Source: Gemmatimonadota bacterium (GTDB lineage: Bacteria > Gemmatimonadota > Gemmatimonadetes > JACCXV01 > JAHWKZ01). Taken from it: a stretch of 35,787 nt of DNA. The stretch spans positions 1 through 35,787 of the forward strand of contig DASSBK010000221.1 of the NCBI GenBank assembly GCA_035698825.1, in the 5' to 3' direction. The stretch's first letter is position 1. Every line of letters starts with the position of its first letter. Shown one piece after another: positions 2,742 to 26,414 of the stretch. The notes under the pieces were generated by a model. It was not told where the DNA came from, made no database searches, and saw only the letters and a list, made by a program, of their open reading frames with translations. The position numbers and the translations under genes were made by a program.

Positions 2742-2860
2742 GGATGATGAAAACGGCCCGCCTGCTGCGTTGGGCTCCTCGTTCTTCCTGCGGCGTGGGA
2801 ATCACCACGCCTAGGAAGAGCCTCGTCGCCCGCCTTGCATCCGGGCCGTTTTGATCATCC
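2742..2860. repeat. ~120-bp long-hairpin intergenic element, copy A
   Basis: 19-bp terminal inverted repeat GGATGATGAAAACGGCCCG/CGGGCCGTTTTGATCATCC with 1 mismatch, and nested inner stems. Aligns over its full length with 26249-26368. Confidence 0.85.
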
Positions 2861-2979
2861 TCCGCGGGTGGGGCAGGCAGGCATCGCTCGGCAGCGAAGT
2901 CGCGAATCGGATGCGGGGTCGGGCGCTGTCGTCGAGGCGGATCAGATAGCGGGATCGCTCGCTCGATCGGCCGTGGCGC

Positions 2980-4308
2980 TCATCTGTCGGCGATGGCGTT
3001 CGCGCCGGTTTCCCGCCACCGCCCGCCCACACAGGTCGCGGCGATTGCGCGGTCACCCGAGCCGAACACCCAGGCGTCGAGAAGCGCCCCTTCGTCACAG
3101 TCCCGGAGCTCGGGGGCGTCGAGGTCGAGCGCGGTGAGGTCGGCCCAGTAGCCGCGCGCGATCGCGCCGGCCGGAATGTCGAGCGCGGCGGCGCCACCCT
3201 GCGTGGCGATCGCCAGGAGCGACCGCCCCACGCAGCCCTCTTCGTCGGCCAGGACGCCACGCTTCTCGCGGCGGAGCCGCTGGCCGTACTCCAGCCAGCG
3301 CATCTCCTCGCTCATCGCGATCCGCAGGTTGGAGTCCGTCCCCAGGCAGAGCCGATCCAGGTGACCCGTCGCATCCGCGAGATCGGGGATGCCGTCTCCG
3401 AGATTCGCCTCGGTCAGCGGGCAGATGCAGACCGAACCCCCCGCCGCGACGAAGCTCTCGAGGTGCTCGCGAGCGGTGTGTGTGCAGTGGACCGCCGTGA
3501 GGCCTTCGAGCGAGGAGAGCGACCGTGACAGCAACGCGATCGGCGGCTCGCCGTACGCGGCGATGCACTCCTCGATCTCGCCGCGCTGCTCCTCGACGTG
3601 CATGTGGACGGGCAGCGCGCGCCGGCGAGCCTCCGCATGGACGGCGGCCAGGTCGTCGAGAGTCGCCGCGCGGATCGAATGGGGCGCGACGCCGAGCGAC
3701 TGGGTCGCGGGATCGATGCGCTCGGCGATTCGATCGAACCGCTCCCAATACTTGGCGACCGATCCGACCGCGAACCGCCGCTGCGCGGGCCCGAGCGGCC
3801 GCCCGATCCCGCCCGTCTCGTAGTACGACTGCAGGAGGACGAGCCGGATCCCGACCTCCGCGGCCGCGTCGAGGACGACCGTGTCGAACGAGCCGTCCCT
3901 CTCGTCGGTGGCATGGTGGAGATAGTGGAACTCGCCGACCGCCGTGATCCCGGCGTCCCGCATCTCCCGGAAGGCACGCACGCAGAGATCGCGAAACCGG
4001 ACGGGGTCGAGGGATCCCACGAGCTCGTACATGGCGTCGCGCCAGGTCCAGAAGCTGCCGGCTCCGGACGAAAACCCTTCGGGGCGCCCCCGGAGGCCGA
4101 TCTGGAAGGCGTGGGAGTGGGCATCGACGAGACCCGGGACGAGCGCTCGGCGCGGGAGCCGCCGGGTGGGCGTCGCCTCGAGCGCGCCGACCGCTTCGAT
4201 GCGCCCGGCCTCGTCGATGGCGATCCGGACCCCGCGCTCGAATCGCGAGCCGGTCCACGTGAGATCGGCCTCGAGGACGGCAGCGGGGGTCAGGAAATCC
4301 TCTTGCAC
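2980..4308 (-). CDS. hutF: Formimidoylglutamate deiminase (amidohydrolase superfamily)
   Basis: Motifs AHSHAFQ, FWTWRDAMY, GEFHYLHH, APHSIRA, HMHVEEQ, CPLTEANLGDG and GTDSN. GTG start at 4308 inferred from overlap with the upstream gene; the longer ORF-track N-terminus is spurious. Confidence 0.85.
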   Translation of the reverse strand: MQEDFLTPAAVLEADLTWTGSRFERGVRIAIDEAGRIEAVGALEATPTRRLPRRALVPGLVDAHSHAFQIGLRGRPEGFSSGAGSFWTWRDAMYELVGSLDPVRFRDLCVRAFREMRDAGITAVGEFHYLHHATDERDGSFDTVVLDAAAEVGIRLVLLQSYYETGGIGRPLGPAQRRFAVGSVAKYWERFDRIAERIDPATQSLGVAPHSIRAATLDDLAAVHAEARRRALPVHMHVEEQRGEIEECIAAYGEPPIALLSRSLSSLEGLTAVHCTHTAREHLESFVAAGGSVCICPLTEANLGDGIPDLADATGHLDRLCLGTDSNLRIAMSEEMRWLEYGQRLRREKRGVLADEEGCVGRSLLAIATQGGAAALDIPAGAIARGYWADLTALDLDAPELRDCDEGALLDAWVFGSGDRAIAATCVGGRWRETGANAIADR

Positions 4309-5462
4309 CAGCGGTCCACCGCCCGGACGAGCGTGTCGTGCGCCGCCGCCAGGTCGGCGAGTGGGATGAACTCGTTCGCCCGATGGGCCACTTCGATCGA
4401 TCCCGGACCCCAGATCGCGCACTCGAACCCGAGGCGCTGGAGCCAGCCCGCGTCGGTGGCGAAGGACACGCTCTCCGCCGCGGGCGAGGACGGATGCATC
4501 GGCCGGGCGGCCTCGCCCTCGAGCCACTCCCAGAGGTCCGATCCTTCCTCGAGCTCCGCGGGCGGGCTCTCGGCCGTCATCTCGAGCCTCCACGTCGCGT
4601 GGCCGGCCGCGCGCTCGACCGCCTCGCGAACCCGCGCGACGAATTCTCCGGAGTTCATCCCGGGCAGGAGCCGCGCGCCGAGCTCGATCTCGCACCGGTC
4701 GGGGATCACGTTCGCCGCCGCGCCACCGTCGATCCGTCCGACGTTCAAGGCCGCGAACGGAACCTGGGGGAACGCGTTCGCGCGCGGCGGGCGCTCGCCT
4801 TCGAGAGCCCGCCGCAGCTCCTCCAGCGCGAGGACCACCCGCGCGGCGGGCTCGATCGCGCTCCGCCCGAGGTGCGGCAGTCCGCTGTGGGCGGCCTTCC
4901 CCTCGACGACGATGCGGACCCGCAGATGCCCCTTGTGGACCCGCGCGGGAACGAGCGAGGTCGGCTCGCCGACGATCGTGCGCCGGGGAAGCGGCTCGGG
5001 CGGCCCACCGGACTCGAAGAGCCTTCGTGCGCCGCGGGTGCCGACTTCCTCGTCGTAGGTGAACAGGAGCGCCAAGGGGCGGTCGAGGCGCTCGGGGTCG
5101 GCCTCCAGCAGCGTCCGGATCGCCAGAGCGAGGAATCCCTTCATGTCCGCCGTGCCCCGGCCGAAGATCGCGCCATCGCGCGGCGCCGCCTCGAAGGGAT
5201 CGGACTGCCACCCGGGTTCGAGCGCCGGCACGACGTCGGTGTGGCCGCAGAGGGTCAGGCCCTCCCGGTCCCCCCGCAGGGGACCGGCGACGATGGCGAG
5301 GTTTGCCTTCTCCCCGTTCTCCGACGGCATCCGGTGGATCCGCAGCCCGCGCCGGTCCAGGCATTCACAGACGAAATCGACGAGCGGGAGGTTGCTCCGC
5401 GAGCTGGTGGTGTCGAAGGCGACCAGGCGCTCCAGGATCTCGACGTCGGACAGACGCGGCAC
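4290..5462 (-). CDS. argE: M20-family deacylase, acetylornithine deacetylase-like
   Basis: Motifs LVAFDTTS, GHTDVVP, GRGTADMKGF, YDEEVG, VGEPT, GPGSIEVAHRANE. GTG start shares a base with the recQ stop (TAGTG). Confidence 0.8.
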   Translation of the reverse strand: MPRLSDVEILERLVAFDTTSSRSNLPLVDFVCECLDRRGLRIHRMPSENGEKANLAIVAGPLRGDREGLTLCGHTDVVPALEPGWQSDPFEAAPRDGAIFGRGTADMKGFLALAIRTLLEADPERLDRPLALLFTYDEEVGTRGARRLFESGGPPEPLPRRTIVGEPTSLVPARVHKGHLRVRIVVEGKAAHSGLPHLGRSAIEPAARVVLALEELRRALEGERPPRANAFPQVPFAALNVGRIDGGAAANVIPDRCEIELGARLLPGMNSGEFVARVREAVERAAGHATWRLEMTAESPPAELEEGSDLWEWLEGEAARPMHPSSPAAESVSFATDAGWLQRLGFECAIWGPGSIEVAHRANEFIPLADLAAAHDTLVRAVDRWCKRIS

Positions 5463-6955
5463 TACGCCTCTCCGTCCGCGCCGTTCAGGGCCTCCAGGAA
5501 GGCGTCGCCGTACCGCTCGAACTTCACCGGTCCGACGCCGGTCACCTCGAGCATCTGGCTGCGGTTCCGCGGCAGCCGCGAGGCCATCTCCCGCAGGGTC
5601 GAATCGTGGAACACGACGTAGGCGGGCACGCCGCGCGAATCCGCCAGCTCCCGCCGCAGCGCGCGGAGGCGCTCGAACACGACCGGGTTCTCCGGCTCGG
5701 CCTGCGCGCGGGCGCCGGAGGGGGCGGTGCTCCCGCGCGCCAGATCCTCGACCGCCACGCCGGCGCAGACGTCGCACGACCCGCCGCAGGCCGCGATCTC
5801 CTCGTCGAAGTGCTCGACGATGGCGCGGTGGCGGCACTCCCGCGAGTCCGCCATCTCGAAGAGGTCCACCGTGGCCCGCCGCTTCTCGGCTCGCTGATCA
5901 GGGTCGGGGATGGCGTCGAGGAACCGCTCGTGGAGTCTGACGTCGGCCCACGAGTAGAAGAGGAAACATTCGCTGGAAAGTCCGTCGCGTCCCGCGCGCC
6001 CCAACTCCTGGACCCACGACTCGACGTCCTTCGGCATGTCCCGATGGATGACGAAGCGCACGTCGGGCTTGTCGATCCCCATGCCGAAGGCGATGGTCGC
6101 GACCACCACGTCCGCACGATCGCGCGCGAACGCCTCCTGGTTGGCGTGCCGCTCCGCCTCCGGCAGCCCGGCGTGGTAGGGAACGGCGGAGACCCCCTTC
6201 CGACGGAGCCACTCGGCCGTGCTCTCCACCGCGCGCCGCGACATGCAGTACACGATCCCGCTCTCGCCGGAGTGGCGTCGCACGAGCGTGAGGATCTCCC
6301 GCCGCGTGTTGCCTCCGCCGCCCTTCTTCCGCACCCCGATCCACAGGTTCGGCCGGAAGAACGAGCCCTTGAAGCCGGCGGGGCGCCGCATGCCGAGCTG
6401 GCGCAGGATGTCGCGCGCGACCCTGCGGGTGGCTGTCGCGGTGAGCGCGAGCACGGGGATGTCGCCGAGGCTCTCGCGAAGCCCCGCGAGCCGCCGGTAG
6501 GACGGACGAAAGTCGTGTCCCCACTGGCTGATGCAGTGCGCCTCGTCGACCACCATGAGGGACAGGGGGCATCCGGCGAGGAGATCCCGGAGCCGGCCCT
6601 CCAGCGCCTCGGGCGCCAGGTAGACGATCTCGTAACCGCCCGCCCGCAGGGTCTCGAGGCGGCGCCGGCGCTCGTCCCGGTCGAGCGTGGAGTCTATCCG
6701 TGTGGCGCGGAAGCCGAGATCGGCCAGCGCGTCGACCTGGTCCTTCATCAGGGAGATGAGGGGGGAGAGGACGAGCACGGTGCCGGGCAGGATCCGCGCC
6801 GGCAGCTGGAACGTCAGCGATTTGCCGCCCCCCGTGGGCATGACCGCGATGCAGTCCCGCCCGGCCAGCACCGCCTCGATGACCTCGCGCTGGCCCGGAA
6901 GGAACGCGTCGAACCCGAATACCCCGCGCAGGACGCCCTGGATGTCCTCCGTCAC
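5462..6955 (-). CDS. recQ: RecQ-family ATP-dependent DNA helicase with HRDC domain
   Basis: Motifs MPTGGGKSL, VDEAHCISQWGHDFRP, ATIAFGMGIDKPDVR, QELGRAGRDG, a Zn-binding Cys cluster and C-terminal HRDC (VPAYVVFHDSTLREMA). Confidence 0.92.
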   Translation of the reverse strand: MTEDIQGVLRGVFGFDAFLPGQREVIEAVLAGRDCIAVMPTGGGKSLTFQLPARILPGTVLVLSPLISLMKDQVDALADLGFRATRIDSTLDRDERRRRLETLRAGGYEIVYLAPEALEGRLRDLLAGCPLSLMVVDEAHCISQWGHDFRPSYRRLAGLRESLGDIPVLALTATATRRVARDILRQLGMRRPAGFKGSFFRPNLWIGVRKKGGGGNTRREILTLVRRHSGESGIVYCMSRRAVESTAEWLRRKGVSAVPYHAGLPEAERHANQEAFARDRADVVVATIAFGMGIDKPDVRFVIHRDMPKDVESWVQELGRAGRDGLSSECFLFYSWADVRLHERFLDAIPDPDQRAEKRRATVDLFEMADSRECRHRAIVEHFDEEIAACGGSCDVCAGVAVEDLARGSTAPSGARAQAEPENPVVFERLRALRRELADSRGVPAYVVFHDSTLREMASRLPRNRSQMLEVTGVGPVKFERYGDAFLEALNGADGEA

Positions 6956-7008
6956 CGGACCGAGCCGCCCCCCATGGAATCAGACACGAAGCAAGCGCCG
7001 GGCCCGAA

Positions 7009-7446
7009 TCATTTGCGGAACACCTTGTACCCGAAGCTGCAGGGCGAGACCGAACAATCGTACATGTTGACCCAGAGTATGTGCGGACCGCTGGCCGGAG
7101 CGGTGAAGATGAGGACCGGATAGGCGTCGTCGAGCGCGTCGCTAGACACTTCGGTTCCATCGGTGTCGCTGAGAGTCAGGTCGAGATCGTCGCAGTCGGC
7201 GTCGCAGACGCCCATGATCATGTACTCCACGCCGCCCGCCAGATCGATCTCCAGGCCGACCGCTGCTCCGGCGTCGAGGAGACCGACGATCATGTCCTCC
7301 TGATCGGGCCGGTAGCCCTCCGTCGACATCCGGTCCTGCACCGCGTCGAGCTGGGCTTCCAGGATGGTGCGATAGGAGCCCTGAGCGTTCGTCGCCTGCG
7401 CGAAGGCGAGCAGCAGGATCGGGACGAGGAATACGAGTCGCGGCAT
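7009..7446 (-). CDS. Exported hypothetical protein, acidic beta-sandwich-like with two Cys pairs
   Basis: Signal peptide (AFAQA), SD GAGGAG upstream, motifs GVCDADCDDLDL and CSVSPC. Confidence 0.7.
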   Translation of the reverse strand: MPRLVFLVPILLLAFAQATNAQGSYRTILEAQLDAVQDRMSTEGYRPDQEDMIVGLLDAGAAVGLEIDLAGGVEYMIMGVCDADCDDLDLTLSDTDGTEVSSDALDDAYPVLIFTAPASGPHILWVNMYDCSVSPCSFGYKVFRK

Positions 7447-7590
7447 GCGCTTTCTCCTCGGGTGCTGTGGTTTGGCTGCGGGGGACGACTAGGGGAATAT
7501 AGTGGGTTTTGAATCCCGGCCGTGGCCGCGTCGTCAGGGGAAGGCGGTCGCGCCCGGACGGCCACCCATCCATTCAACCGAGGAGAATCG

Positions 7591-8067: not shown

Positions 8068-8106
8068 ATCGAAGGCCGCCCGGGCGCCGCGGGCGTCGGG
8101 CGGGGA

Positions 8107-12228: not shown

Positions 12229-13118
12229 GCGGAGGATCCGAGCGCCGCCGGATCCGGACCTACCACGAGGTCGCCGATCCCGGAGCCGAATCGGTCGTCG
12301 GCCAGGTGGTCGAACAGCGTCGGCGGCTCCGGGAGCGGCTGGCGGGAGTGGGCCGGCTGGTCGCGGTCGGGAGCGGAAAGGGGGGCGTCGGGAAGAGCGC
12401 GATCAGCGCGAACGTCGCCGCGGCGCTGGCCGCGAGCGGCCGGGCGGTCGGCGCCCTGGACGCCGACCTGGACGGACCGTCGCTGGCGCGGATGCTGGGC
12501 GCCCGGGGCGGTCTGGCGCGCGGCGACAGCGGATTCCGGCCGGCGAGGGGGGCGGCCGGCGTCGGCGTCGTGTCGATGGATCTCCTGGTCGCGGAGGGCG
12601 CCCCCGTTCGGTGGCGCGGACCGGAGGAGCACCGGTTCGCGTGGCAGAGCGTGATCGAGACGGGAGCGCTCCGCGAGTTCCTGTCCGACGTCGAGTGGGG
12701 CGCGCTCGACGTCCTCGTCCTGGACCTGCCGCCCGGCACGGAAAAGCTCGCGCGCCTGATCGATCTCGTGGGATCCCCCGACGCCGTCCTCATCGTGACG
12801 ACTCCGTCCGAGGCCGCCCGCCACGTCGTGGCGAAGAGCGCGCGATTCCTCGAGGACGCCGGAGTCCGGGAAGTGGGGCTGGTGGCGAACATGGCGACCT
12901 GGAGCTGCCCGCACTGCGGCGTGGCCGAGCCCCTCTTCGCCGCCGACGGCGCCCGCCGGCTGGCGCGGGATTCCGGCCTCGAGCTCTGGGCCGAGGTGCC
13001 GTTCGACCCCCGGATCGCGGCCGACACCGACGAAGGCATGCCGATCGTGCTGAGTGCGCCCGAGCGCCCGGCGGCGCGCTCGCTCGCGGCGCTCGCCGAG
13101 CGGGTGGCGGCGCCGTGA
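12225..13118 (+). CDS. Mrp/NBP35 (ApbC-like) P-loop ATPase, Fe-S cluster carrier
   Basis: Motifs SGKGGVGKS, DADLDGPS, WGALDVLVLDLPPGT, VTTP and NM..CPHC. GTGA overlap start. Confidence 0.87.
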   Translation: MSGGSERRRIRTYHEVADPGAESVVGQVVEQRRRLRERLAGVGRLVAVGSGKGGVGKSAISANVAAALAASGRAVGALDADLDGPSLARMLGARGGLARGDSGFRPARGAAGVGVVSMDLLVAEGAPVRWRGPEEHRFAWQSVIETGALREFLSDVEWGALDVLVLDLPPGTEKLARLIDLVGSPDAVLIVTTPSEAARHVVAKSARFLEDAGVREVGLVANMATWSCPHCGVAEPLFAADGARRLARDSGLELWAEVPFDPRIAADTDEGMPIVLSAPERPAARSLAALAERVAAP

Positions 13119-13564
13119 AATTTCTCTGCATCGGGTGCGACGCGGTGATGGATTACGTGGAGCGGCGGCTCCCCGGAGACGGGACGATGGCCGTCGTCTA
13201 CGCCTGTCCGGCCTGCGGCAAGGAGACCGCGATGCTCGCCAACCCGATGGAGACGCGCCTCGTCAGCGGCCTGGGGATCGAAGTGGGCGGCAGGAGCGTG
13301 CCGCCCGAGCCGCTCGAGCTCGTGCGGTCCTCCGTCGAGGGGCTCGAGGAGCGGGCCGAGGGAGTCGCCGAAGCGGCGCCTCCACGTCCGGGCGGGGTGC
13401 GCTGGAGCGAGGACGCGCGGGAGCGGCTCATGGCGGTGCCCTCGTTCGTCCGGGGGATGGTCAAGCGGATCTACGGCGAGTACGCGGCCGAGCGCGGCAT
13501 CGAGGAGATCACGCCGGAGATCATGGATCGCGCCCGCTCCGAGCTGGGACTGGAGGGGATGTAG
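13115..13564 (+). CDS. Zn-ribbon (CxxC...CxxC) protein with C-terminal PCP_red-like (BchB C-terminal-like) module
   Basis: VKFLCIGC...YACPAC, then VRWSEDARERLMAVPSFVRGMVKRIYGEYAAERGIEEITPEIMDRAR. GTGA overlap with mrp. Confidence 0.78.
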   Translation: MKFLCIGCDAVMDYVERRLPGDGTMAVVYACPACGKETAMLANPMETRLVSGLGIEVGGRSVPPEPLELVRSSVEGLEERAEGVAEAAPPRPGGVRWSEDARERLMAVPSFVRGMVKRIYGEYAAERGIEEITPEIMDRARSELGLEGM

Positions 13565-13582
13565 CGCGCGGGTGGAAGTCGT

Positions 13583-13611
13583 TTGACACGTTCCCCCACC
13601 GTTTTTATATA
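13583..13611 (+). promoter_or_regulatory. Possible sigma70-type promoter for the USP-to-cox transcription unit
   Basis: Perfect TTGACA at 13583-13588 and an AT-rich TTTATATA about 16-17 bp downstream in otherwise GC-rich DNA. The -10 element is imperfect. Confidence 0.45.
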
Positions 13612-13670
13612 GGGGCGTCGCACAGGCAGGAACCGCCCTTGCAGTCGATTTCCCTTCGAAATCGGGTGGC

Positions 13671-15764
13671 ATGTATCGAGAGATCCTCGTACCGGTGGAC
13701 AACTCCGAGCACTCCGACTGGGCCGTCGACCGCGCGATCGAGATCTGCCGCCGCTCGGGCGGCCGCGTCACCGGCAACCACGTCTACGCCGCCCGCCTCC
13801 ACGACGTCCGCTTCCGCCAGCTCGAGACCGGCCTCCCCGCACAGTTCCAGACCCCCGACGAGATCAAGCGCCAGCGGAAGATCCACGACAAGCTGATCGA
13901 GAAGGGCCTGCAGCTGATCTCCGACAGCTTCCTCGACCAGGTCGAGAAGCGCTGCGCGGCCGTGGGGGTGCCGGTGACGCGGCAACTCCTCGAGGGGATC
14001 AACTACGAGGAGCTGGTGCGCGAGGCGAACCGGGGCGAGGGCCGGCTTCCGAGCCTGATCGGCTTCGACCCCAACATCGCCGACAAGTACGACGGTGGCG
14101 CCACGGTGCGCGGCGACGTGCGCCTGGGGGAGGACGGCAGGATCATCGCCGAGGAAGAGGACGCCGACGAGAAGCTCGCGGGCAGCTCGGGCAGGAGCTA
14201 CGACCTGGTGGCGATCGGGGCGCACGGCCTCGGCAGGCAGCCCCTGAGCCAGCTGGGCGGGGTGGTGGCGCGCGCGATCCGAGGCATCGAGAAGGACGTC
14301 CTGATCGTGCGGGACGACCGCCCGCTCGAAGGCGGTCGCTTCCTCGTCTGCGTGGACGGCTCGGCCTACTGCTACAAGGCGATGCGCGTGGCGCTGGAGA
14401 TGGCGCGGGAATTCGGCGCGAAGCTCTACGTGGCGAGCGCGTTCGACGTCGAATACCACCACGTCGTCTTTCACAACATCAAGGACGTCCTCTCGGTCCA
14501 GGCCTCGAAGGTGTTCAAGTTCGAGGAGCAGGAGGAGCTCCACAACAACATCATCGACAAGGGCCTCCTGCGGCTCTGTCAGGCGAACCTCAAGCGCGCC
14601 GAGGTCATGGCCGCTGAGTATCCCGACATCGCGATCGAGACGCAGATCCTGATCGGCAAGCCGTTCCAGGTCGTCCTCCAGTGGGCGGAGGAGATCGAGC
14701 CCTCCCTGCTCGTGGTCGCGCGCCACGGGAGCCATCGCATCGACGGGACGGATCTGGGGTCCCAGGCGGACAACCTGAGCCGCATCGCGACGGTGAACAC
14801 GCTGCTGGTAGGCACCACCGCGGTCCATCCCGAGGAGATCCCGTGGATCGAGGAGGACGGCGAGACGGGCCTCGAGTGGTCGCCGGACGCCGAGGTCCGG
14901 ATCCTGCGGGTTCCGCCGTTCGCGCTCGGCATCGCGCGCAAGGCCGTCGAGGAGTACGTGCTGGAGCGGTACGGCGCCGCGGTCGGCGCTGGAGCCGGCG
15001 GGAACGGAAACGGCAACGGAACCGTGCCTGCCGACGGGAACGGGCACGCGCCGTCGAACGGGGACGGAAGACCGCGCGGCCTGCCGACCGTCACCGGCGA
15101 GCGGCTGGACGAGGCGATCCAGAAGCTCCTGCCGACCCACATGCAGCTCATCATGGGAATCGGCACGGCCGAGGAGCTCGCGCTGGCCGAGATCAAGGCC
15201 GAGGAGGCGATGAAGCGGACGCTCGTCGAGGGCAGCGACGTGGACGACGCTCCCGCGGTGCGCATGGTGACGGCGAAGTGTCCGTACACGGGGCACGTGC
15301 AGGAGCGGGAGTGGACGGAGAAGGACCCGGTCGTGTGGACGGGAGAAGCGTTCGAGCGACTGCGTCTGGTGCCGCTCATCGCGCGGCCGCTGGCCCGGAA
15401 CACGGTCGAGCGCTTCGCCCGCGATCACGCCATGTGGCGGATCACGACCCGGGTGATGGACGAGAACAAGCAGGCGATGATCGAGGCCGACGAGTTCGAC
15501 GTCGACACGATGCTGGTGATGTTCAAGGAGCTCCAGACCAAACAGCTCAGGGCCGCCGCGGAGGGCGTGGACGGACTGACGCCCGAGATGCGCCGATTCA
15601 TCGACGAGGCGAAGGCCGCCGGCGTCACTCGCTGCCCCATCCGGGACATCGAGAAGCAGATCGACAAGTGCCCGGTCGATTTCAAGGCCGCCACGCCCGC
15701 CGAGGCCAAGGCGGCCGTCGAGGCCTTCCTGAATTCCGCCGCAGCCGCGGAGGACGCCCCATAG
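13671..15764 (+). CDS. Tandem universal stress protein (USP) domain protein with two PCP_red-like modules and three Cys-Pro motifs
   Basis: USP motifs ILVPVDNSEHS...DLVAIGAHG...DVLIVR and FLVCVDGS...LLVVARHG...LGSQA. PCP_red-like LEWSPDAE..RVPPF and VVWTGEAFERLRLVP. Motifs KCPY, RCPI and KCPVDF. Confidence 0.8.
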   Translation: MYREILVPVDNSEHSDWAVDRAIEICRRSGGRVTGNHVYAARLHDVRFRQLETGLPAQFQTPDEIKRQRKIHDKLIEKGLQLISDSFLDQVEKRCAAVGVPVTRQLLEGINYEELVREANRGEGRLPSLIGFDPNIADKYDGGATVRGDVRLGEDGRIIAEEEDADEKLAGSSGRSYDLVAIGAHGLGRQPLSQLGGVVARAIRGIEKDVLIVRDDRPLEGGRFLVCVDGSAYCYKAMRVALEMAREFGAKLYVASAFDVEYHHVVFHNIKDVLSVQASKVFKFEEQEELHNNIIDKGLLRLCQANLKRAEVMAAEYPDIAIETQILIGKPFQVVLQWAEEIEPSLLVVARHGSHRIDGTDLGSQADNLSRIATVNTLLVGTTAVHPEEIPWIEEDGETGLEWSPDAEVRILRVPPFALGIARKAVEEYVLERYGAAVGAGAGGNGNGNGTVPADGNGHAPSNGDGRPRGLPTVTGERLDEAIQKLLPTHMQLIMGIGTAEELALAEIKAEEAMKRTLVEGSDVDDAPAVRMVTAKCPYTGHVQEREWTEKDPVVWTGEAFERLRLVPLIARPLARNTVERFARDHAMWRITTRVMDENKQAMIEADEFDVDTMLVMFKELQTKQLRAAAEGVDGLTPEMRRFIDEAKAAGVTRCPIRDIEKQIDKCPVDFKAATPAEAKAAVEAFLNSAAAAEDAP

Positions 15765-15765
15765 G

Positions 15766-17136
15766 GTGAGCGCGACACCGCCATTCGGGGCCGTGTCGGC
15801 GGATCGGGCCGCGCCGCGCAGGGACTGGGAAACGGACGTCGCGGTGCGCGCGGCGGGACCGGAGTTCGTGCCGCACGTCGTCGCCTGGAACCTGACCCGC
15901 CGCTGCAACCTCGAGTGCGCTCACTGCTACATCGCGGCGGGCGCCTGGCACGCCGCCGCGGAGGAGATGTCGACCGCGGACTGCCTGAGGGTCGTGGACG
16001 AGATCCTCGCGGTGAGCCCCGCCCCGATGCTGATCCTGAGCGGCGGTGAGCCCTTGCTTCGCGACGACCTGGAGACGATCGCCCGGCGGGCCGCCGACGG
16101 GGGCGCGACGGTGGTCGTGGGAACGAACGGCACGCGCCTCACGCCGGCCCGCATCGACTCGCTGAAGGCGGCGGGCGTCCGTGGCGTGGCGGTCTCGATC
16201 GACAGCCTCGACGGCGATTACCACGACCGCTTCCGCCACGGTGCCGGATCGCTGGACGAAACGCTGGCCGCGATCGAGCGGCTGCGCGAGGCGCGGCTCG
16301 ATTTCGTGGTCCAGACCACCGTGACGCGCGGCAACCGCCACGAGATCGCGCGCCTCGTGGCCTGGGCGGCGGAGAAGGGCGCGGTCTCGTTCAACTGCTA
16401 CTTCGTTGTGGCCACCGGTCGCGCGTCCGGGATGCGCGGGCTCTCGCCTCGCGAGAACGACGAGGTCCTGGCCGAGCTGGTGGCGCTGGGGAAGGCGTAT
16501 CGGGGCCGGATGATGGTGCGCTCGAAGTGCCAGCCCCAGATCATGCGCCACGCGTATGCCGGCGATCCGGAATCGGGACTCCTCGACTACGCCACGCGTT
16601 GCCCGTGCGGCGTTCAGTACTGCCGCATCACGCCCGACGGAAAGGTCACGCCCTGCCCCTACATGCCGGTCGAGGCCGGAGATCTGGCGAGCGCGAGCTT
16701 CGGAGAGATCTGGCGCGAGTCGCGGGTCTTCCGCGAGCTCCGCGCGACGGAGCTCGGCGGACGCTGCGGACGATGCGAGTTCCGGATCGTGTGCGGGGGC
16801 TGCCGGGCGCGCGCCTACGCGGAGGAGGGGGACTGGCTGGCGGAGGACCCCGCCTGCTCGTACGAGCCGACCGGACGGGTCCCGGTCGTGGAGCCGCGGC
16901 TCGTGGCCCATGGCGCGCCGGCGGAGCGGACGCTTGCGTGGAGCGCGGCGGCCCGGGAGCGGATGGGCCGCGTCCCCGGCTTCGTGCGCGCCGTCGTGAC
17001 CGCCCGCGTGGAGAAATACGCCGCGGAACGGGGATACCCAATCGTCACCGAAGACGTGATCGACGAGGTGCGCTCGGCGCTGCCGATCGACTTCGCCAAG
17101 AGGAAGCCGTTCTTCCTCGGGAAGGACCCGTCGTGA
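15766..17136 (+). CDS. Radical SAM/SPASM protein of the NirJ/AhbC/AhbD type with C-terminal PCP_red-like module
   Basis: VAWNLTRRCNLECAHCY, SGGEPLLRDD, GTNG, SIDS; SPASM CPCG..YC..PCP...CGRCEFRIVCGGCRARA...DPAC; tail LAWSAAARERMGRVPGFVR. Confidence 0.85.
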   Translation: MSATPPFGAVSADRAAPRRDWETDVAVRAAGPEFVPHVVAWNLTRRCNLECAHCYIAAGAWHAAAEEMSTADCLRVVDEILAVSPAPMLILSGGEPLLRDDLETIARRAADGGATVVVGTNGTRLTPARIDSLKAAGVRGVAVSIDSLDGDYHDRFRHGAGSLDETLAAIERLREARLDFVVQTTVTRGNRHEIARLVAWAAEKGAVSFNCYFVVATGRASGMRGLSPRENDEVLAELVALGKAYRGRMMVRSKCQPQIMRHAYAGDPESGLLDYATRCPCGVQYCRITPDGKVTPCPYMPVEAGDLASASFGEIWRESRVFRELRATELGGRCGRCEFRIVCGGCRARAYAEEGDWLAEDPACSYEPTGRVPVVEPRLVAHGAPAERTLAWSAAARERMGRVPGFVRAVVTARVEKYAAERGYPIVTEDVIDEVRSALPIDFAKRKPFFLGKDPS

Positions 17137-19687: not shown

Positions 19688-19697
19688 GGCATACGCC

Positions 19698-20489: not shown

Positions 20490-22129
20490 GGTTTCCGGCG
20501 CGCATGGCTTGGCCCCTGCTGGCGGCCCTCTTCGTGGCGCCCGCGTCCGTGACCGCGCAGGACTCCCAGACCGGGAAGGCGGAGTACGACCGGTGGTGTG
20601 CCGGCTGTCACGGCGTGGACGGCAAGGGGGATGGCCCGGGTGCCGGGACGATGATGCCGCGGCCGCGCGACTTCACGACCGGCCGCTACCAGATCCGCTC
20701 GACGCCGAGCGGCGCGCTCCCCACGGACGAGGACCTCACGAGTGTGATCCTGGACGGGATGCCCGGCACCGCGATGCCCGGATGGCGGGACCACTTCGGC
20801 GAGCGCGAGGTGCAGGAACTGGTCGCCCACATCAAGTCGTTCTCGCCGTTCTTCGAGAGCCAGCCGGCCCCCGAGCCGGTGGAGATCGTGTCGGCTCCCG
20901 GAGCGGACGATGCGGCGCTCGCGGAGGGTCGGGAGTTCTACGAGAAGATCGAGTGCAACAAGTGCCACGGCGAGGCGGGCAGAGGGGATGGTCCGTCGGC
21001 GCCCACGCTCGAGGACGACGACGACCGGCCGATACGCGCCGCCGATCTCACCGAGAACTGGTTCTTCAACGGCGGGGGGTCGGTGGAGGAGATCCACGAG
21101 CGTCTGGTCACGGGCCTCAACGGAACGCCGATGCCTTCGTTCCAGGACCTGATCGCCGCCGAGTTCATGACCGAGGAGCAGTTATGGCACGTGGCGCAGT
21201 ACGTCCGGAGCCTGGCGCCCGAGGAGCCCCCGGTCGTGCGGGAGGTCGTTCGCGCCGGGCGGGTGGAGGGCGATCTGCCGGCGTCGGTGGACGACGCCGC
21301 ATGGGAGACCGCCGAGCGCTTCTACGTGCCGCTCGTCGGACAGGTAATCGCCCGCCCGCGCTGGTTCTCGCCCACCGTGGACGGCGTATGGGTCCAGGCG
21401 CTTCACAACGGTCGAGAGCTGACGATGCGCCTCGTGTGGCACGACCCGTCGGAAAGCCCCGATCCGGACTGGGACGAGTGGCGGGACAAGGTGCTCGCGC
21501 TGATGGCGTTCGCCGACGCGCCGGTCGCGGAGTCGCCCGATTCGGCCGCCGCCGAGGCACCGGCGGAGTCCGCGCCGGGGGGCGGGGCCGATACGACGGC
21601 GGTCGCCGCCGCCTCGCCGGGGGCACCCTTCCCGGACGCGTTGGTGGTTCAGTTCCCGCGCTCCATCCCCGAGGGCATGGAGCGGCCCTATTTCCTCATG
21701 GGCGACGATCGCGATCCGGTGTATCTCTGGCGCTGGGAAAGCGGACGGCAGGCGAGCGAGATGCTGGCGCGCGGGCTGGCGAGGTACGAGCCTCTCGGCG
21801 GCGCCCAGGCCGGAGCCGTGACGGCCGAGGCCGTGTTCGACCAGGGCGAGTGGCGACTCATGCTGCGCCGGACGATGGACGCGGAAGGAGTCGCGGATCG
21901 CCTCGGCTTCGAGCCAGGGCGCGCGATCCCGATGGCGCTGTTCGCGTGGGACGGGTCCAACGGAGAGACGGGAACGCAAGGGGCGATCGGAAGCTGGTAT
22001 TTCCTGTACCTGGATCAGCCGACGGCGAGCACCGTGTACGTGACGCCGGTCCTGGCGACGCTGTTGACTGCGGCGCTGGGCGTGGTGTTGGTCAGGCGGG
22101 CGCAGCGGCGCGCGCGAAACGATGCGTAG
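20486..22129 (+). CDS. Diheme cytochrome c fused to an ethylbenzene-dehydrogenase-gamma (EbdC/DOMON)-like domain, with C-terminal membrane anchor
   Basis: Signal peptide; CAGCHG...PRPRDF...GMPGTAMP; CNKCHG...GTPMP; then VQALHNG..L.WHDP, DALVVQFP, PYFLMG, GEW...R, AWDG; C-terminal TM followed by RR. Confidence 0.82.
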   Translation: MRFPARMAWPLLAALFVAPASVTAQDSQTGKAEYDRWCAGCHGVDGKGDGPGAGTMMPRPRDFTTGRYQIRSTPSGALPTDEDLTSVILDGMPGTAMPGWRDHFGEREVQELVAHIKSFSPFFESQPAPEPVEIVSAPGADDAALAEGREFYEKIECNKCHGEAGRGDGPSAPTLEDDDDRPIRAADLTENWFFNGGGSVEEIHERLVTGLNGTPMPSFQDLIAAEFMTEEQLWHVAQYVRSLAPEEPPVVREVVRAGRVEGDLPASVDDAAWETAERFYVPLVGQVIARPRWFSPTVDGVWVQALHNGRELTMRLVWHDPSESPDPDWDEWRDKVLALMAFADAPVAESPDSAAAEAPAESAPGGGADTTAVAAASPGAPFPDALVVQFPRSIPEGMERPYFLMGDDRDPVYLWRWESGRQASEMLARGLARYEPLGGAQAGAVTAEAVFDQGEWRLMLRRTMDAEGVADRLGFEPGRAIPMALFAWDGSNGETGTQGAIGSWYFLYLDQPTASTVYVTPVLATLLTAALGVVLVRRAQRRARNDA

Positions 22130-22166
22130 GGTTGTCGCGAACCGAATCAAACCAAGGAGGACGCTG

Positions 22167-23021
22167 ATGAGACATTCGATCGAGGCGCTGGCCGCGAGCT
22201 TGCTGGTCGTCGCGCTAGCCTGCGGCGGTGGCGGCGAGGAGGCGGACACCGGGGGAGACGTAGCGGTGGACGAGGAGGCGGGGCCCGCCGTCAGCCCGGA
22301 CAGCGCGGCGACGATTACGGGCGTCGTGAACTTCACCGGCACCGCGCCGGCCGGGGAGCCCATCGACATGAGCGAAGAGCCGACGTGCGCGGAACAGCAC
22401 ACCGAGCCGCCCATGAGAATGCAGGTCGTTGCGGCGGACGGAAAGCTCGCCAACGTCTTCGTGTACGTGAAGGAGGGGTTGGGTGACCGCCGATTCCCGG
22501 TCTCGCAGGAAGGGGTCACGATCGACCAGCGGGGCTGCGAGTATCATCCGCACATCATCGCCATCCAGACGGGACAGGATCTGATCGTCAAGAATTCCGA
22601 CGGGATCCTGCACAACATCAACACGCAGCCGTCCGTGAATCAGGGCTTCAACGTGAGCCAGCCGGTGGCGATGGAGACCACCAAGACGTTCACGTCCCCC
22701 GAGGTGATGATTCCCGTGAAATGCGACGTGCACGGGTGGATGGAGGCCTTCATCGGCGTGCAGGACCATCCGTACATGGCGGTGAGCGGCGCGGACGGAA
22801 CGTTCACGCTCGAGAACCTGCCGCCGGGCACGTATACCATCGAGGCCTGGCACGAGCTGTACGGCACCCAGACACAGACCGTCACCGTCGCGGCCCAGGG
22901 GACGGGTCAGGTCACGTTCGACTACTCGAGCGATATGGCGGGCAACCCGGTGCCGATGGGGGATCCGATCGACCTCCACGAGCACGACGGGCACGTCCGG
23001 GTCGCGTCCGCGGGCCGGTAG
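22167..23021 (+). CDS. Lipoprotein with cupredoxin-like domain and carboxypeptidase-regulatory-like beta-sandwich
   Basis: AAGGAGG SD; lipobox ALA-C; IDQRGCEYHP, NSDGILHN and KCDVHGWM (type-1 Cu-like His/Cys/His/Met); GTFTLENLPPGTYTIEAWHE. Confidence 0.8.
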   Translation: MRHSIEALAASLLVVALACGGGGEEADTGGDVAVDEEAGPAVSPDSAATITGVVNFTGTAPAGEPIDMSEEPTCAEQHTEPPMRMQVVAADGKLANVFVYVKEGLGDRRFPVSQEGVTIDQRGCEYHPHIIAIQTGQDLIVKNSDGILHNINTQPSVNQGFNVSQPVAMETTKTFTSPEVMIPVKCDVHGWMEAFIGVQDHPYMAVSGADGTFTLENLPPGTYTIEAWHELYGTQTQTVTVAAQGTGQVTFDYSSDMAGNPVPMGDPIDLHEHDGHVRVASAGR

Positions 23022-23048
23022 CGTGCGCGCCACGGCGAGGGGGGAGTA

Positions 23049-23840
23049 ATGGACTGGGGCTGGTTGATGTCGGAGCCGGCTTCGACGTTCGGCTCCAAGA
23101 TCGACTCCATCTACTATGTGATCCTGGTGATCACAGGGGTGATCTTCGTGCTCGTGGAGGGCGCGCTGATCGTGTTCCTGTTGAAGTACCGGCACCGCGA
23201 GGGTCGGCGGGCGGAATACTCCCATGGACACACCAAGCTGGAGGCGGTGTGGACGATCATCCCCTTCATCCTCGTCATGGCGATCGCCTGGATGAGCATG
23301 GATGTGTGGCTCGAAGCGAAGATCGCGGATGGCCATGCGCCGGCGGACGCACTGCCGCTGCGCGTGACGGCGAAGCAGTTCGAGTGGAATGTCACCTATC
23401 CCGGGCCCGACGAGAAGCTCGACACCCCCGACGACTTCGTGAAGAGGAACCAGCTCCACCTTCCTGTGGGCAGGGCCGTGAGGGTCGACCTGGCCAGCGA
23501 GGACGTGATCCACTCGTTCTTCCTGCCTGTGTTCCGGGTGAAGCAGGACGCGGTACCCGGCATGGTGATTCCGGTGTGGTTCGAGGCGACGAAGGCGGGT
23601 GAGTACCCGCTGGGCTGCGCCGAGCTGTGCGGTCTCGGCCACTACCGGATGCGCGGCTCGGTCACCGTGCACGAGGCGGCGGCGTTCGACTCGTGGGTCG
23701 CTGAGGAGGGATCGGCGCCGGCCGCGGAGACGCCGGCGCCCGCGGACACCACCGGTGGCGGGGCCGAGGCAGCCGAAGCCGCCGCGGCCCCGGGCCACGA
23801 TCATCAGCAACCATCCAGCGAAGGAGAGGGGCGGGCATGA
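23049..23840 (+). CDS. coxB: Cytochrome c oxidase subunit II (CuA, no fused cytochrome c)
   Basis: Two TM helices, LEAVWTIIP, QFEW, DVIHSF and CAELCGLGHYRM. Confidence 0.93.
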   Translation: MDWGWLMSEPASTFGSKIDSIYYVILVITGVIFVLVEGALIVFLLKYRHREGRRAEYSHGHTKLEAVWTIIPFILVMAIAWMSMDVWLEAKIADGHAPADALPLRVTAKQFEWNVTYPGPDEKLDTPDDFVKRNQLHLPVGRAVRVDLASEDVIHSFFLPVFRVKQDAVPGMVIPVWFEATKAGEYPLGCAELCGLGHYRMRGSVTVHEAAAFDSWVAEEGSAPAAETPAPADTTGGGAEAAEAAAAPGHDHQQPSSEGEGRA

Positions 23841-25627
23841 GCACGGTGCCGATCGAAATCGGGCATCCGTCGGTTCAGCACTGGGCGGAGCCCGGCCACG
23901 CAGACCACAGGTCGTTCCTGCGGAAGTACATCTTCTCCACCGATCACAAGGTGATCGGGTGTCAGTTCCTGATCATGAGCCTCACGTTCCTGCTGATCGG
24001 CGGGTTGCTGGCGATGCTCATCCGCTGGCAGCTGGGCTGGCCGGGAACGGCGGTTCCGGGCGGCGCGATCCTCGGGGATGCGAAAGCTCCCGGGGGGATC
24101 ATCCTGCCCGAGTTCTACAACTCCCTGGTCACCATGCACGGCACGATCATGATCTTCTTCGCGATCATGCCGCTACTCGTGGGCGTGTTCGGCAACTGGC
24201 TGATCCCTCTCCACGTCGGTGCGGCCGACATGGCCTTCCCGCGGCTCAACATGGCGTCGTTCTGGACCGCCCTTCCCGCCGGGGTGATCATGCTGAGCAG
24301 CTTCTTCGTCACCGGGGGATCGGCGGCGGCCGGCTGGACGGCCTACGCGCCCCTCTCCGCGAGCCCCGAGCTGAGCGGCGTCTACATGGGGCAGAAGCTC
24401 TGGTGTCTCAGCCTGATCGTGCTCGGATTCTCATCGCTGATGGGCGCGGTCAACTACATCACGACGATCGTGAACATGCGCGCTCCGGGCATGAAGTGGA
24501 TGCGCCTGCCGCTTCCGATCTGGGCGCTGTTCATTACCGCGATCCTGGTCCTGCTGGCGATTCCGGTCTTGACCGGAGCGCTGATCCTGCTCCTCTTCGA
24601 TCAGACGATCGGGACGACGTTCTTCCTGCCGAAGGACGGCGGACAGCCGCTCATGTGGCAGCACCTGTTCTGGTACTTCGGGCACCCCGAGGTCTACATC
24701 CTGATCCTGCCGGCCATGGGAATCGCCTCCGAGGTCATCTCCAATGGCTCGCGGAAGCCGATCTTCGGCTACAAGTTCATGGTCTACGCGATCGTCGCGA
24801 TCGCGTTCCTCGGCTGGATCGTCTGGGGGCACCACATGTTCCAGAGCGGCATGAACCCGCTCCTCGGCGGCGCGTTCATGACCTCGACGATGATCATCGC
24901 GGTGCCCTCGGCGATCAAGGTGTTCAACTGGCTGGGAACCATCTACCGAGGAGACATCCACTTCCACGTGCCGATGCTGAACGCGCTCGCGTTCGTGGCG
25001 ATGTTCGTGATCGGCGGGCTGTCGGGCGTGTTCATGGCGTCGACGCCGGTCGACATCTACATCCACGACACGTACTTCATCGTGGCGCACATCCACTACG
25101 TGCTCTTCGGCGGGAGCCTGTTCGCGATCTTCGCGGGGATCTACTTCTGGTATCCCAAGTTCTTCGGGCGGATGCTGAATCCGACCTTGGGGAAGATCCA
25201 TTTCGCGTTGACCTTCGTGTTCTACAACGCGGTCTTCTTCCCGATGCACAACCTGGGGCTGGACGGCATGATGCGCCGGATCTACGACCCCAACCAGTAC
25301 GAATACCTGGCGCAGTACCAGCCGATGAACACGTTCATCTCCGTGTCCGCGCTGCTGCTGGGGGCATCCCAGCTCATCTTCCTGTTCAACTTCCTGTGGT
25401 CCCTGCGCGGGGGGAAGAAGGCGCCGGCGAACCCCTGGAACTCGAATTCCCTCGAGTGGACGCTGCCGTCGCCGCCGCCCCACGGGAACTTCCCGACCAT
25501 GCCCACCGTCTACCGGGGGCCCTACGAGTACAGCGTGCCGGGACGGGAGGCCGACTACTGGCCGCAGAGCGAACCGCCCGGAGAGCCGGAGCGAAAGGCC
25601 GCCCATCGGGAGGAGGTGCACGCATGA
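23837..25627 (+). CDS. coxA: Cytochrome c oxidase subunit I, A1-type
   Basis: TMHGTIM, DMAFPRLN, GHPEVY, WGHHMF, PSAIK, HDTYFIVAHIHY, GMMRR. Confidence 0.96.
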   Translation: MSTVPIEIGHPSVQHWAEPGHADHRSFLRKYIFSTDHKVIGCQFLIMSLTFLLIGGLLAMLIRWQLGWPGTAVPGGAILGDAKAPGGIILPEFYNSLVTMHGTIMIFFAIMPLLVGVFGNWLIPLHVGAADMAFPRLNMASFWTALPAGVIMLSSFFVTGGSAAAGWTAYAPLSASPELSGVYMGQKLWCLSLIVLGFSSLMGAVNYITTIVNMRAPGMKWMRLPLPIWALFITAILVLLAIPVLTGALILLLFDQTIGTTFFLPKDGGQPLMWQHLFWYFGHPEVYILILPAMGIASEVISNGSRKPIFGYKFMVYAIVAIAFLGWIVWGHHMFQSGMNPLLGGAFMTSTMIIAVPSAIKVFNWLGTIYRGDIHFHVPMLNALAFVAMFVIGGLSGVFMASTPVDIYIHDTYFIVAHIHYVLFGGSLFAIFAGIYFWYPKFFGRMLNPTLGKIHFALTFVFYNAVFFPMHNLGLDGMMRRIYDPNQYEYLAQYQPMNTFISVSALLLGASQLIFLFNFLWSLRGGKKAPANPWNSNSLEWTLPSPPPHGNFPTMPTVYRGPYEYSVPGREADYWPQSEPPGEPERKAAHREEVHA

Positions 25628-26244
25628 GCCACGGCGCCGCGATCTCGGCCACGCACCCGATGGAGGGGATGAAGGTCTACAACCTCAAGCTCGGGATGTG
25701 GGTGTTCCTGCTGTCGGAGGTGATGTTCTTCTCGAGCCTGATCGGGGCCTACATCATCCTGCGGTTCGCGCACCCCGAGCAGTGGGCGGAGCCCAATGTG
25801 GTCCTCAACGTTCCGCTCACGGGTTTCAACACCTTCATGCTGATCTGCAGCTCGGTGACGATGGTCAAGGCCTTCGCCGCGATCGAGCACGGGGATCAGG
25901 CGGGCCTCAGGAAGTGGCTGATCGCGACGATCATCCTGGGCTCGGCGTTCGTCAGCATCCAGGTCTTCGAGTACATCAAGCTCGCCCACGAGGGGTTCGT
26001 TCCCGTCGCGGCGAGATATGCTGCCGAGGGAGGTCCGCTGTACGGTTCGACGTTCTACACCATGACGGGCTTCCACGGCGCCCACGTCACGATCGGGGTG
26101 CTGGCGCTGATCTTCACGACCATCAAGGCGTTCCGGGGGAAATACTCGGCGACGGACTACGGCGGAGTGGAGATCATGGGACTCTACTGGCACTTCGTGG
26201 ATCTGGTGTGGATCATTCTTTTCACAATCGTCTACCTGATTTGA
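25624..26244 (+). CDS. coxC: Cytochrome c oxidase subunit III (short form)
   Basis: GMWVFLLSEVMFF, TGFHGAHV, GLYWHFVDLVW; ATGA overlap with coxA. Confidence 0.93.
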   Translation: MSHGAAISATHPMEGMKVYNLKLGMWVFLLSEVMFFSSLIGAYIILRFAHPEQWAEPNVVLNVPLTGFNTFMLICSSVTMVKAFAAIEHGDQAGLRKWLIATIILGSAFVSIQVFEYIKLAHEGFVPVAARYAAEGGPLYGSTFYTMTGFHGAHVTIGVLALIFTTIKAFRGKYSATDYGGVEIMGLYWHFVDLVWIILFTIVYLI

Positions 26245-26248
26245 TCAG

Positions 26249-26368
26249 GGCGCGTGAAAACGGGCCATCTGCTGCGTTGCGCTCCTCGTGCCGGCCTGCG
26301 GCGTACACTCCGGTACGCCTCGGCCGTCCCTCGTCGCGCGCCTTGCATCTGACCCGTTTTGACGCGCC
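26249..26368. repeat. ~120-bp long-hairpin intergenic element, copy B
   Basis: Terminal inverted repeat GGCGCGTGAAAACGGG/CCCGTTTTGACGCGCC with 1 mismatch; homologous to 2742-2860. Confidence 0.85.
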
Positions 26369-26414
26369 TCCAGCAGCGTCAACCTCACATCGGTCCTGAG
26401 CGGGGAGGAGCTTG

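What the first reader, a model, noticed from the sequence alone, without database searches (positions are those of the whole stretch)
2742..26368. Two diverged ~120-bp hairpin elements with compensatory base changes (2742-2860 and 26249-26368)
Seen: both copies share the blocks GAAAACGG, CTGCTGCGTTG, TCCTCGT, CCTGCGGCGT, ACGCCT, CCTCGTCGC, CGCCTTGCATC and CCGTTTTGA, while paired arms change together. The outer stem is GGATGAT/ATCATCC versus GGCGCGT/ACGCGCC; next come GGGC/GCCC versus GCGC/GCGC, CTTCC/GGAAG versus CGGCC/GGCCG, and apical GGCGTGG/CCACGCC versus GGCGTAC/GTACGCC. The same G.G mismatch sits in both outer stems. Both are in the same orientation, 2-4 nt after a stop codon. Inference: structure is under selection while internal loops keep their sequence, as expected for a structured RNA motif or a REP/MITE-like element recognised as folded ssDNA or RNA. 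No transposase is in the window.
Basis: seen in the sequence. Interest (0 to 1): 0.72.

Follow-up and report, generated by a model that had tools for sequence, protein, structure and literature searches.

The report
Decayed IS5 mini-transposon with conserved hairpin
The two hairpins are copies of a repeat present about 50 times just behind gene ends in this uncultured Gemmatimonadota bacterium; it is likely the worn-down remnant of an IS5-type miniature transposon, and its core, shared with about ten other bacterial phyla, is predicted to fold best on the strand opposite the messenger RNA, for a reason not yet shown.

Summary
The two hairpins belong to a family with about 50 copies in this genome (40 full length), found in 22 of 22 same-family genomes searched. 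There is no Rfam match. Covariation is strong: 29 of 43 pairs show double changes. 31 of 46 copies start within -9 to +6 nt of a co-oriented stop codon. The outer arm resembles the terminal repeat of IS5-group insertion sequences. In other phyla the same core sits in complete MITEs with a second terminal repeat (20 of 58) and 4-bp target duplications. In this genus those features are lost (2 of 67, no duplication). Copies are old and inherited, swap interiors and decay by deletion. Tolerated mismatches and tandem GA loops show that the conserved fold lies on the strand antisense to the upstream mRNA, which argues against a simple 3'-UTR RNA motif. No RAYT/Y1 gene was found in 31 family genomes. 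A related core was annotated in Geobacter metallireducens in 2009 as a 'predicted short RNA'. This scan already noted the family in this genome and similar cores elsewhere. Verdict: new variant of a known kind (MITE); the core's role is unproven.

The parts
2742..2860 (+). Copy 1 of the hairpin element (119 nt), 2 nt after the TAG of the upstream gene
   Evidence: orthologous copies in G002 (L002) and G005 (L037)
2742..2753 (+). Copy 1 left arm (GG-N4-TGAAAA), inferred remnant of an IS5-group left terminal inverted repeat
2761..2841 (-). Copy 1 cross-phylum core; its TC/TC loops on + read as tandem GA/GA loops on the - strand, the strand predicted to be kept folded
2849..2860 (+). Copy 1 inner arm (TTTTGA-N4-CC), pairs with the left arm except for the conserved G.G (2749/2853)
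   Evidence: G.G in 69 of 70 rows
26249..26368 (+). Copy 2 of the hairpin element (120 nt) between cox3 and cox4, 4 nt after the cox3 TGA
   Evidence: full copy in G003, G006, G008 and in another genus (G009, L239); symmetric internal deletions in G001 and G004
26249..26260 (+). Copy 2 left arm, inferred terminal-repeat remnant
26268..26349 (-). Copy 2 cross-phylum core
26357..26368 (+). Copy 2 inner arm, G.G mismatch at 26256/26361
1..2739 (+). Upstream host gene of copy 1 (Peptidase_S8, PKD, Laminin_G_3; 5' end open); context only
25624..26244 (+). cox3, upstream host gene of copy 2; context only
26415..26708 (+). cox4, co-oriented downstream gene of copy 2, so copy 2 lies inside an apparent operon; context only

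Best explanation
The two hairpins are copies of a roughly 50-copy repeat family that likely descends from an IS5-group miniature transposon (MITE), has lost its far terminal repeat and target duplication in this genus, and carries a cross-phylum core predicted to fold on the strand antisense to the upstream mRNA. Shown: copy number, stop-codon adjacency, orientation bias, covariation, retention at orthologous sites, loss by deletion, and complete MITE anatomy for the same core in other phyla. Inferred step 1: an IS5-group DDE transposase acting in trans inserted the ancestor at TA-containing 4-bp targets; at TAG/TAA stops the duplication leaves the gene intact. Inferred step 2: the spacer and far repeat were deleted, leaving a mostly immobile hairpin. 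Inferred step 3: gene conversion between copies swaps the inner hairpin as a unit while the outer arms stay with the locus. Inferred step 4 (weakest, about 0.3): the purine-rich strand folds as single-stranded DNA (a cruciform arm) with tandem sheared G.A pairs, and this fold is what conversion or a host protein recognises. On that reading the orientation bias comes from selection against placing the more stable, GA-rich strand in mRNA.
For: An IS5-family transposase (NF033581, 268 bits, cut-off 140) in same-genus G005 ends in a terminal repeat matching the element's left arm, preceded by CTAG. In 36 of 37 IS loci examined, 63 pattern-selected ends read YTAR+CAGG-N4-KGAAA, 47 of them CTAG. Cross-phylum copies have a distal terminal repeat in 20 of 58 (0.3 expected from shuffles), with 5 perfect 4-bp duplications. 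Orthologous NC10 copies L464 and L447 show the full form and the hairpin-only form at one site. In G000, stops before the element are TAG/TAA in 19 of 26 versus 666 of 2109 genes, p = 2e-5. Covariation: 29 of 43 pairs, 301 double-changed cells, 0 of 500 shuffles, slid controls 28-53 cells. In 41 ortholog pairs the outer N4 identity is 0.83 versus 0.42 for non-orthologs, yet the apex type differs in 19 of 41. Strand: A.C(+) = G.T(-) 71 versus G.T(+) 22 in 70 rows, and 65 versus 13 in 70 clustered cross-phylum copies. Three TC/TC loops are kept in 53, 59 and 62 of 70 rows. Neighbours are unrelated housekeeping genes: no transposase family among 77 scanned at E <= 1e-10.
Against: In this genus the MITE hallmarks fail: a distal repeat-like match in 2 of 67, both better read as ends of facing neighbour copies, and 0 duplications. 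No clean empty site was found at base resolution among 61 G000 sites. The matching transposase was found in only 2 of 31 family genomes and not in G000, though draft genomes often lose IS elements. Left arms differ from the IS consensus at two of four free positions. Only 6 of 26 preceding stops are strict YTAR. Only 335 of 1327 YTAR sites are at called stops, and autonomous ISs show no clear end bias at stops (about 3-5 left versus 5 right, crude test), so target choice alone does not explain the bias. The invariant G.G on + is a C.C on the favoured strand. 27 of the 71 A.C cells come from one column, kin and converted copies are not independent, and one TC/TC loop is imposed by the cross-phylum search pattern. 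The core also occurs with unrelated arms and without terminal repeats, so it is not simply an IS5 by-product.
Confidence: 0.6

Rival explanations
1. A domesticated mRNA 3'-end or intercistronic element: the + strand hairpin is co-transcribed directly after the stop codon and sets mRNA stability, processing or ribosome release, as described for REP/BIME, ERIC and Correia elements.
For: Left ends lie within -9 to +6 nt of a co-oriented stop in 31 of 46 copies. No right end lies within 6 nt of a convergent stop, apart from one truncated copy that overlaps a called gene. The + strand still folds at -65 to -75 kcal/mol. The cox3 copy is kept across two genera. Loop positions are 0.91 identical between orthologs versus 0.78 for the most variable codon position upstream. 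PMC3049150 passages describe orientation-dependent RNase effects of ERIC and Correia elements.
Against: Mismatch tolerance and GA loops favour the antisense strand. Neighbour genes share no function. Many orthologous sites have lost or truncated the element: of 61 sites, 10 show remnants and 23 were scored empty. No terminator- or promoter-like site was found at copy 2.
Confidence: 0.17
2. The purine-rich strand is a structured RNA (antisense or independently transcribed) with tandem G.A motifs, carried around by several MITE families.
For: The minus strand folds better as RNA in 51 of 70 family copies and 64 of 70 cross-phylum copies. The RNAalifold covariation term is -7.8 kcal/mol. The related Geobacter family was annotated as a predicted short RNA.
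Against: No promoter-like site was found at copy 2. There is no Rfam family. DNA parameters favour the same strand (55 of 70), so RNA is not required. Fifty interchangeable copies at unrelated genes is unusual for a trans-acting RNA.
Confidence: 0.13
3. A REP/REPIN-type element moved as single-stranded DNA by an HUH (RAYT/Y1) nuclease.
For: It has a strand-specific hairpin with conserved mismatches, copies at gene 3' ends, and occasional facing or tandem pairs. Y1 genes occur in all 10 other-phylum carrier genomes searched.
Against: Y1_Tnp was found in 0 of 31 family genomes although 22 of 22 searched carry the element. The core lay beside 2 of 51 Y1 loci, one orthologous site where the element supplies the stop codon. 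Four-base duplications and terminal repeats in relatives point to DDE chemistry. No terminal GTAG/CGTC tag belongs to the element.
Confidence: 0.05
4. Neutral palindrome upkeep: template switching between arms plus gene conversion produce double changes without any selection on structure.
For: Interior modules are swapped at orthologous sites, and internal deletions are symmetric.
Against: Arm copying should erase mismatches, yet the G.G two bases from a freely varying pair is kept in 69 of 70 rows. A single pair between two TC/TC loops also co-varies (C-G 56, G-C 6). The mismatch spectrum is strand-asymmetric, and core blocks are conserved across about ten phyla.
Confidence: 0.05

Closest known systems
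MITEs derived from IS5-family insertion sequences (transposase NCBIfam NF033581 transpos_IS5_4; Pfam DUF772 + DDE)
   Same: The left arm resembles the IS terminal repeat. Relatives in other phyla have both repeats and a 4-bp TA-containing duplication. The element is non-coding, short and multicopy.
   Different: An extra inner copy of the repeat closes a 120-nt hairpin. The core is not found in the autonomous ISs (0 of 48 loci). This genus has lost the far repeat and the duplication. Orientation at stop codons is strongly biased.
Gmet_R1001-R1024 'predicted short RNA elements' of Geobacter metallireducens (PMC2700814, Additional file 4 Fig. S1)
   Same: About 113 nt, 24 intergenic copies, with the same central palindrome and similar flanking blocks on both sides, judged by eye from the supplement alignment.
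   Different: Its basal arms are different and not IS5-like. The paper gives no mechanism, mobility or strand analysis in the passages read. I made no formal model search of those sequences.
REP/BIME/REPIN with RAYT; GTAG and CGTC repeats (PMC3733652)
   Same: Palindromic, intergenic, mostly downstream of coding regions (abstract).
   Different: Three to six times longer than the 20-40 bp REPs, with no terminal tag, and no RAYT in 31 family genomes.
ERIC/IRU, Correia, RUP and BOX elements; Chunjie MITE of Geobacter uraniireducens
   Same: MITE-like long stem-loops of 100-235 bp next to genes; BOX supplies stop codons in 36 genes (PMC3049150 passages).
   Different: Chunjie is A+T-rich with 21-bp repeats and 9-bp duplications (PMC3184786 passages). 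These families are described as lineage-restricted, whereas this core spans many phyla. Sequences were not compared directly.

Membership tests
IS5-derived MITE | Short, non-coding, multicopy | tested here: met
   119-120 nt; 51 hits, 40 full length, none inside a called gene
IS5-derived MITE | Left end similar to the terminal repeat of an autonomous IS | tested here: met
   GG-N-Y-G-N-TGAAA versus IS CAGG-N-T-G-C-KGAAA; same-genus IS L211; drift at two positions
IS5-derived MITE | Two functional terminal inverted repeats in this genus | tested here: not met
   2 of 67 distal matches in the genus; 20 of 58 in other phyla
IS5-derived MITE | 4-bp target-site duplication | tested here: not met
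   0 in this genus; 5 perfect among 20 cross-phylum copies with a distal repeat. The window copies are therefore filed as decayed descendants, not intact MITEs.
IS5-derived MITE | Empty pre-insertion site in a relative | tested here: inconclusive
   23 of 61 sites scored empty in G000, but spacers at 70-94% flank identity do not align to the base
IS5-derived MITE | Cognate transposase in the same genome | tested here: inconclusive
   Not found in the G000 draft (96% complete, 332 contigs); found in 1 of 8 other genus genomes
IS5-derived MITE | Mobilisation in trans shown | not testable with these tools
   Needs a transposition assay
REP/REPIN-RAYT | RAYT (Y1 HUH) gene flanked by the repeats | tested here: not met
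   0 of 31 family genomes; 2 of 51 Y1 loci elsewhere, one orthologous insertion
REP/REPIN-RAYT | 20-40 bp unit with a terminal GTAG or CGTC tag | tested here: not met
   Alignment A2; definition from the PMC3733652 abstract
Rfam structured RNA | Match above a family's gathering score | tested here: not met
Cis-regulatory or 3'-UTR structured RNA | Fold conserved on the mRNA strand, consistent gene class | tested here: not met
   Mismatch spectrum favours the antisense strand; unrelated neighbours
Cis-regulatory or 3'-UTR structured RNA | Expression with defined ends | not testable with these tools
   No usable stranded reads were available
Geobacter Gmet_R1 family | Shared core sequence and length | tested here: inconclusive
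   Similar by eye in the supplement alignment; no model search of those sequences
ISfinder-catalogued MITE/IS ends | Match to a named entry | not testable with these tools

The most novel reading that the evidence does not exclude
The roughly 80-nt core is an ancient, strand-specific structural module (tandem sheared G.A pairs, as ssDNA or antisense RNA) recognised by a conserved bacterial protein. It has been captured repeatedly by unrelated IS5/IS1182-type MITEs, spreads its variants by hairpin-guided gene conversion, and has been domesticated at gene 3' ends in at least ten phyla. That would be an undescribed class of orientation-specific gene-end element rather than transposon debris.
Probability: 0.25. 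Interest if true: 0.72.

Novelty: new variant of a known kind. Interest (0 to 1): 0.42.

Why it matters
MITE interiors are usually treated as inert filler. Here one interior is conserved across about ten phyla, outlives the terminal repeats that delivered it, and keeps its fold on the strand opposite the mRNA while hugging stop codons in one orientation. If a protein or RNA pathway reads this fold, it is a widespread unannotated genetic element of soil and sediment bacteria. It can be tested in cultured carriers such as Geobacter and Geothermobacter. If not, it is a clear example of how MITEs decay into REP-like repeats.

Tried and rejected
Rfam: no match for the element or for 12 cross-phylum loci (best E = 0.064, below gathering). 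RAYT/Y1: rejected as above. IS91-type Y2: 0 of 5 genomes, but the control rang nowhere, so this is uninformative. Reverse transcriptase: in 2 of 5 genomes, not in G000, and no core nearby. Replication-strand bias: strands alternate along a closed NC10 chromosome (12 +, 7 -, interleaved), so orientation follows genes rather than replichores. Plasmids: no match for two queries. Viral contigs: 1 core match. The 15-nt terminal-repeat pattern gave 103 viral hits, none of the 80 tested showing the transposase. Expression: no RNA holder listed; one small-share contig run was laid and is uninformative. My first stop-distance script for cross-phylum copies was confounded by the TGA inside the arm and was not used. 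The duplication count for the second repeat type (1 of 16) was one base out of register; six duplications were read by eye instead. The supplement term search found nothing because it covered 12 of 19 files and the alignments are split by tabs; one search opened the wrong file. Paper searches for this family: searches returned 0; two searches returned unrelated papers; some searches gave the comparators cited.
Full report
1. Observation. Both elements, the shared blocks, the stems and the G.G mismatch are as described. Both strands fold far better than shuffles. Only these two copies lie in the window, and Rfam has no match. The host is a Gemmatimonadota bacterium, judged by named relatives of its HemA at 83-91% identity. 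The genome is 2.78 Mb, 69.6% GC, 96% complete, in 332 contigs.

2. A repeat family. Iterated nhmmer gives 51 hits in the genome (one duplicated copy counts twice; 7 are cut by contig ends), 40 of them full length. A covariance model built from 74 copies gives 40 strong hits. BLAST finds the element in 8 of 8 genus and 15 of 24 family genomes. The model finds it in 22 of 22 family genomes and weakly in 11 of 78 other genomes of the class.

3. Position. With my own codon-model gene calls, no copy lies inside a gene. The upstream gene is co-oriented in 40 of 44 scoreable hits, against 0.37 expected for long gaps. Of 46 hits with a left end, 31 start within -9 to +6 nt of that stop; in five the TGA of the arm is itself the stop. 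No right end lies within 6 nt of a convergent stop, apart from one truncated copy that overlaps a called gene. Preceding stops are TAG/TAA in 19 of 26 versus 666 of 2109 genome-wide, but only 6 of 26 are strict YTAR, and only 335 of 1327 YTAR sites are at stops. Strands are interleaved along a closed NC10 chromosome, so orientation tracks genes.

4. Origin. Record titles include Nitrospirota, NC10, Desulfobacterota, Acidobacteriota, Binatia, Eisenbacteria, Pseudomonadota, Selenomonadales, Streptomyces, Porphyromonas and Bdellovibrio (grouping into about ten phyla is from my own knowledge, and some bins may be mislabelled). Many of these copies read: target, terminal repeat, core, inner inverted copy, 12-14 nt spacer, far terminal repeat, target. 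The far repeat is present in 20 of 58 (0.3 expected), with 5 perfect and 5 three-of-four duplications. A second repeat type shows six 4-bp duplications read by eye. Other copies have unrelated arms. Autonomous IS5-family elements (NF033581), including one in same-genus G005, end in the same repeat with YTAR duplications. There were 63 pattern-selected ends in 36 of 37 loci, and the core was in none of 48 IS loci. In this genus the far repeat and duplication are gone (2 of 67 and 0). One NC10 site shows both states in two genomes.

5. Age and turnover. Of 123 relative copies, 106 could be placed on G000: 57 occupied, 16 remnant, 33 scored empty; 17 were left out for lack of a close upstream match. 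They fall on 61 sites, none a clean empty site. The cox3 copy is intact in three congeners and in another genus, and internally deleted with arms kept in two. In 41 ortholog pairs the outer N4 positions follow the locus (0.83 versus 0.42), while the apex type differs in 19. There are 110 paired-to-paired double changes against 131 single changes. I read this as old insertion, conversion of interiors and gradual loss, not rapid spread.

6. Structure and strand. On 74 copies, 91.9% of cells pair, 29 of 43 pairs have double changes, and no shuffle or slid control approaches this (relatedness inflates the shuffle test). In 70 rows (4 left out for end misregister) unpaired cells are A.C 71, G.T 22, pyrimidine-pyrimidine 141 and purine-purine 20 on the + strand. 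Three 2x2 TC/TC loops are conserved, one pair sandwiched between two of them co-varies, and two positions toggle between G-C and T.C. On the - strand these become G.T wobbles and tandem G.A pairs in 5'-CGAG-3' context, a stable motif in both DNA and RNA (recalled knowledge). Seventy clustered cross-phylum copies repeat the bias with a strand-neutral register (A.C 65, G.T 13). Deamination of the coding strand would push the other way (inference). Caveats: 27 A.C cells are in one column, one TC/TC loop is built into the search pattern, and the invariant G.G is a C.C on the favoured strand. That last mismatch may keep the inner arm from acting as a transposon end (untested).

7. Alternatives. No Y1/RAYT gene was found in 31 family genomes, and the core is not enriched beside 51 Y1 loci elsewhere. 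Among 77 of the 136 neighbour ORFs picked and scanned, none matched a transposase family and functions were unrelated. An effect of the + strand hairpin on mRNA remains possible and untested.

8. Literature. [quoted passage not shown] For PMC2996986 I read passages only; its alignment supplements were not read and may hold this family. PMC3543383 was seen as a listing only. PMC3733652: abstract and section 16. PMC10969869, PMC3184786, PMC3049150 and PMC1590033: passages. The Chunjie and Yersinia ERIC papers were not read. Nine searches found no description of this family's MITE anatomy or strand bias; the library lacks most subscription papers.

9. Earlier notes of this scan. The family was already noted on another piece of this genome as REP/REPIN-like with one foldable strand, and similar cores in IS5-type MITEs were noted in other genomes. 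My IS5 and strand results preceded those look-ups. I agree on the strand, but my tests do not support RAYT or rapid turnover.

10. Verdict. A real, strongly covarying element: a likely decayed IS5-type MITE carrying an unexplained, widely conserved, strand-specific core. New variant of a known kind; interest 0.42.

Noticed in passing
G000:C65:22900-23353 versus G000:C64:4630-4743 and window 2860-3090: The C65 copy has the upstream flank of the C64 copy (113 of 114 nt identical) and a downstream flank about 91% like window copy 1. This is either recombination through the element or an assembly or strain chimera.
   Followed up: partly
L464:2440-2620 and L447:2440-2620 (two NC10 genomes): The element supplies the stop codon of a long Y1/HUH-domain gene at one orthologous site. 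One genome has the full MITE with far repeat, the other only the hairpin.
   Followed up: partly
L247, L249, L250 (other families of the same class): Diverged relatives of the core; in L247 and L249 it lies in reverse orientation after an IS5-like terminal repeat, with different arms.
   Followed up: no
G000 C181:539, C285:51, C41:3575, C211:21051; L244, L245: Several copies abut tRNA-like sequence (read by eye, not run through ARAGORN) instead of a stop codon.
   Followed up: no
G000 C130:3923-4200 and C160:13305-13548: A facing pair and a tandem pair of copies; C63:5599-5737 has an internal duplication, and C105 and C73 are symmetric internal deletions.
   Followed up: partly
window 13115-17136: PCP_red domains occur in three consecutive genes (Usp protein, radical SAM/SPASM protein and an upstream ORF); already noted by the scan as e1-7076695.
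   Followed up: no
window 23049-26708 (+) and 27714-31449 (-): Two convergent cytochrome c oxidase operons (cox2-1-3-4) lie in one window, downstream of a cytochrome c / EB_dh cluster.
   Followed up: no
L415-L417 (G006, G008): Reverse transcriptase genes occur on short contigs of two congeners, with no link to the core.
   Followed up: partly
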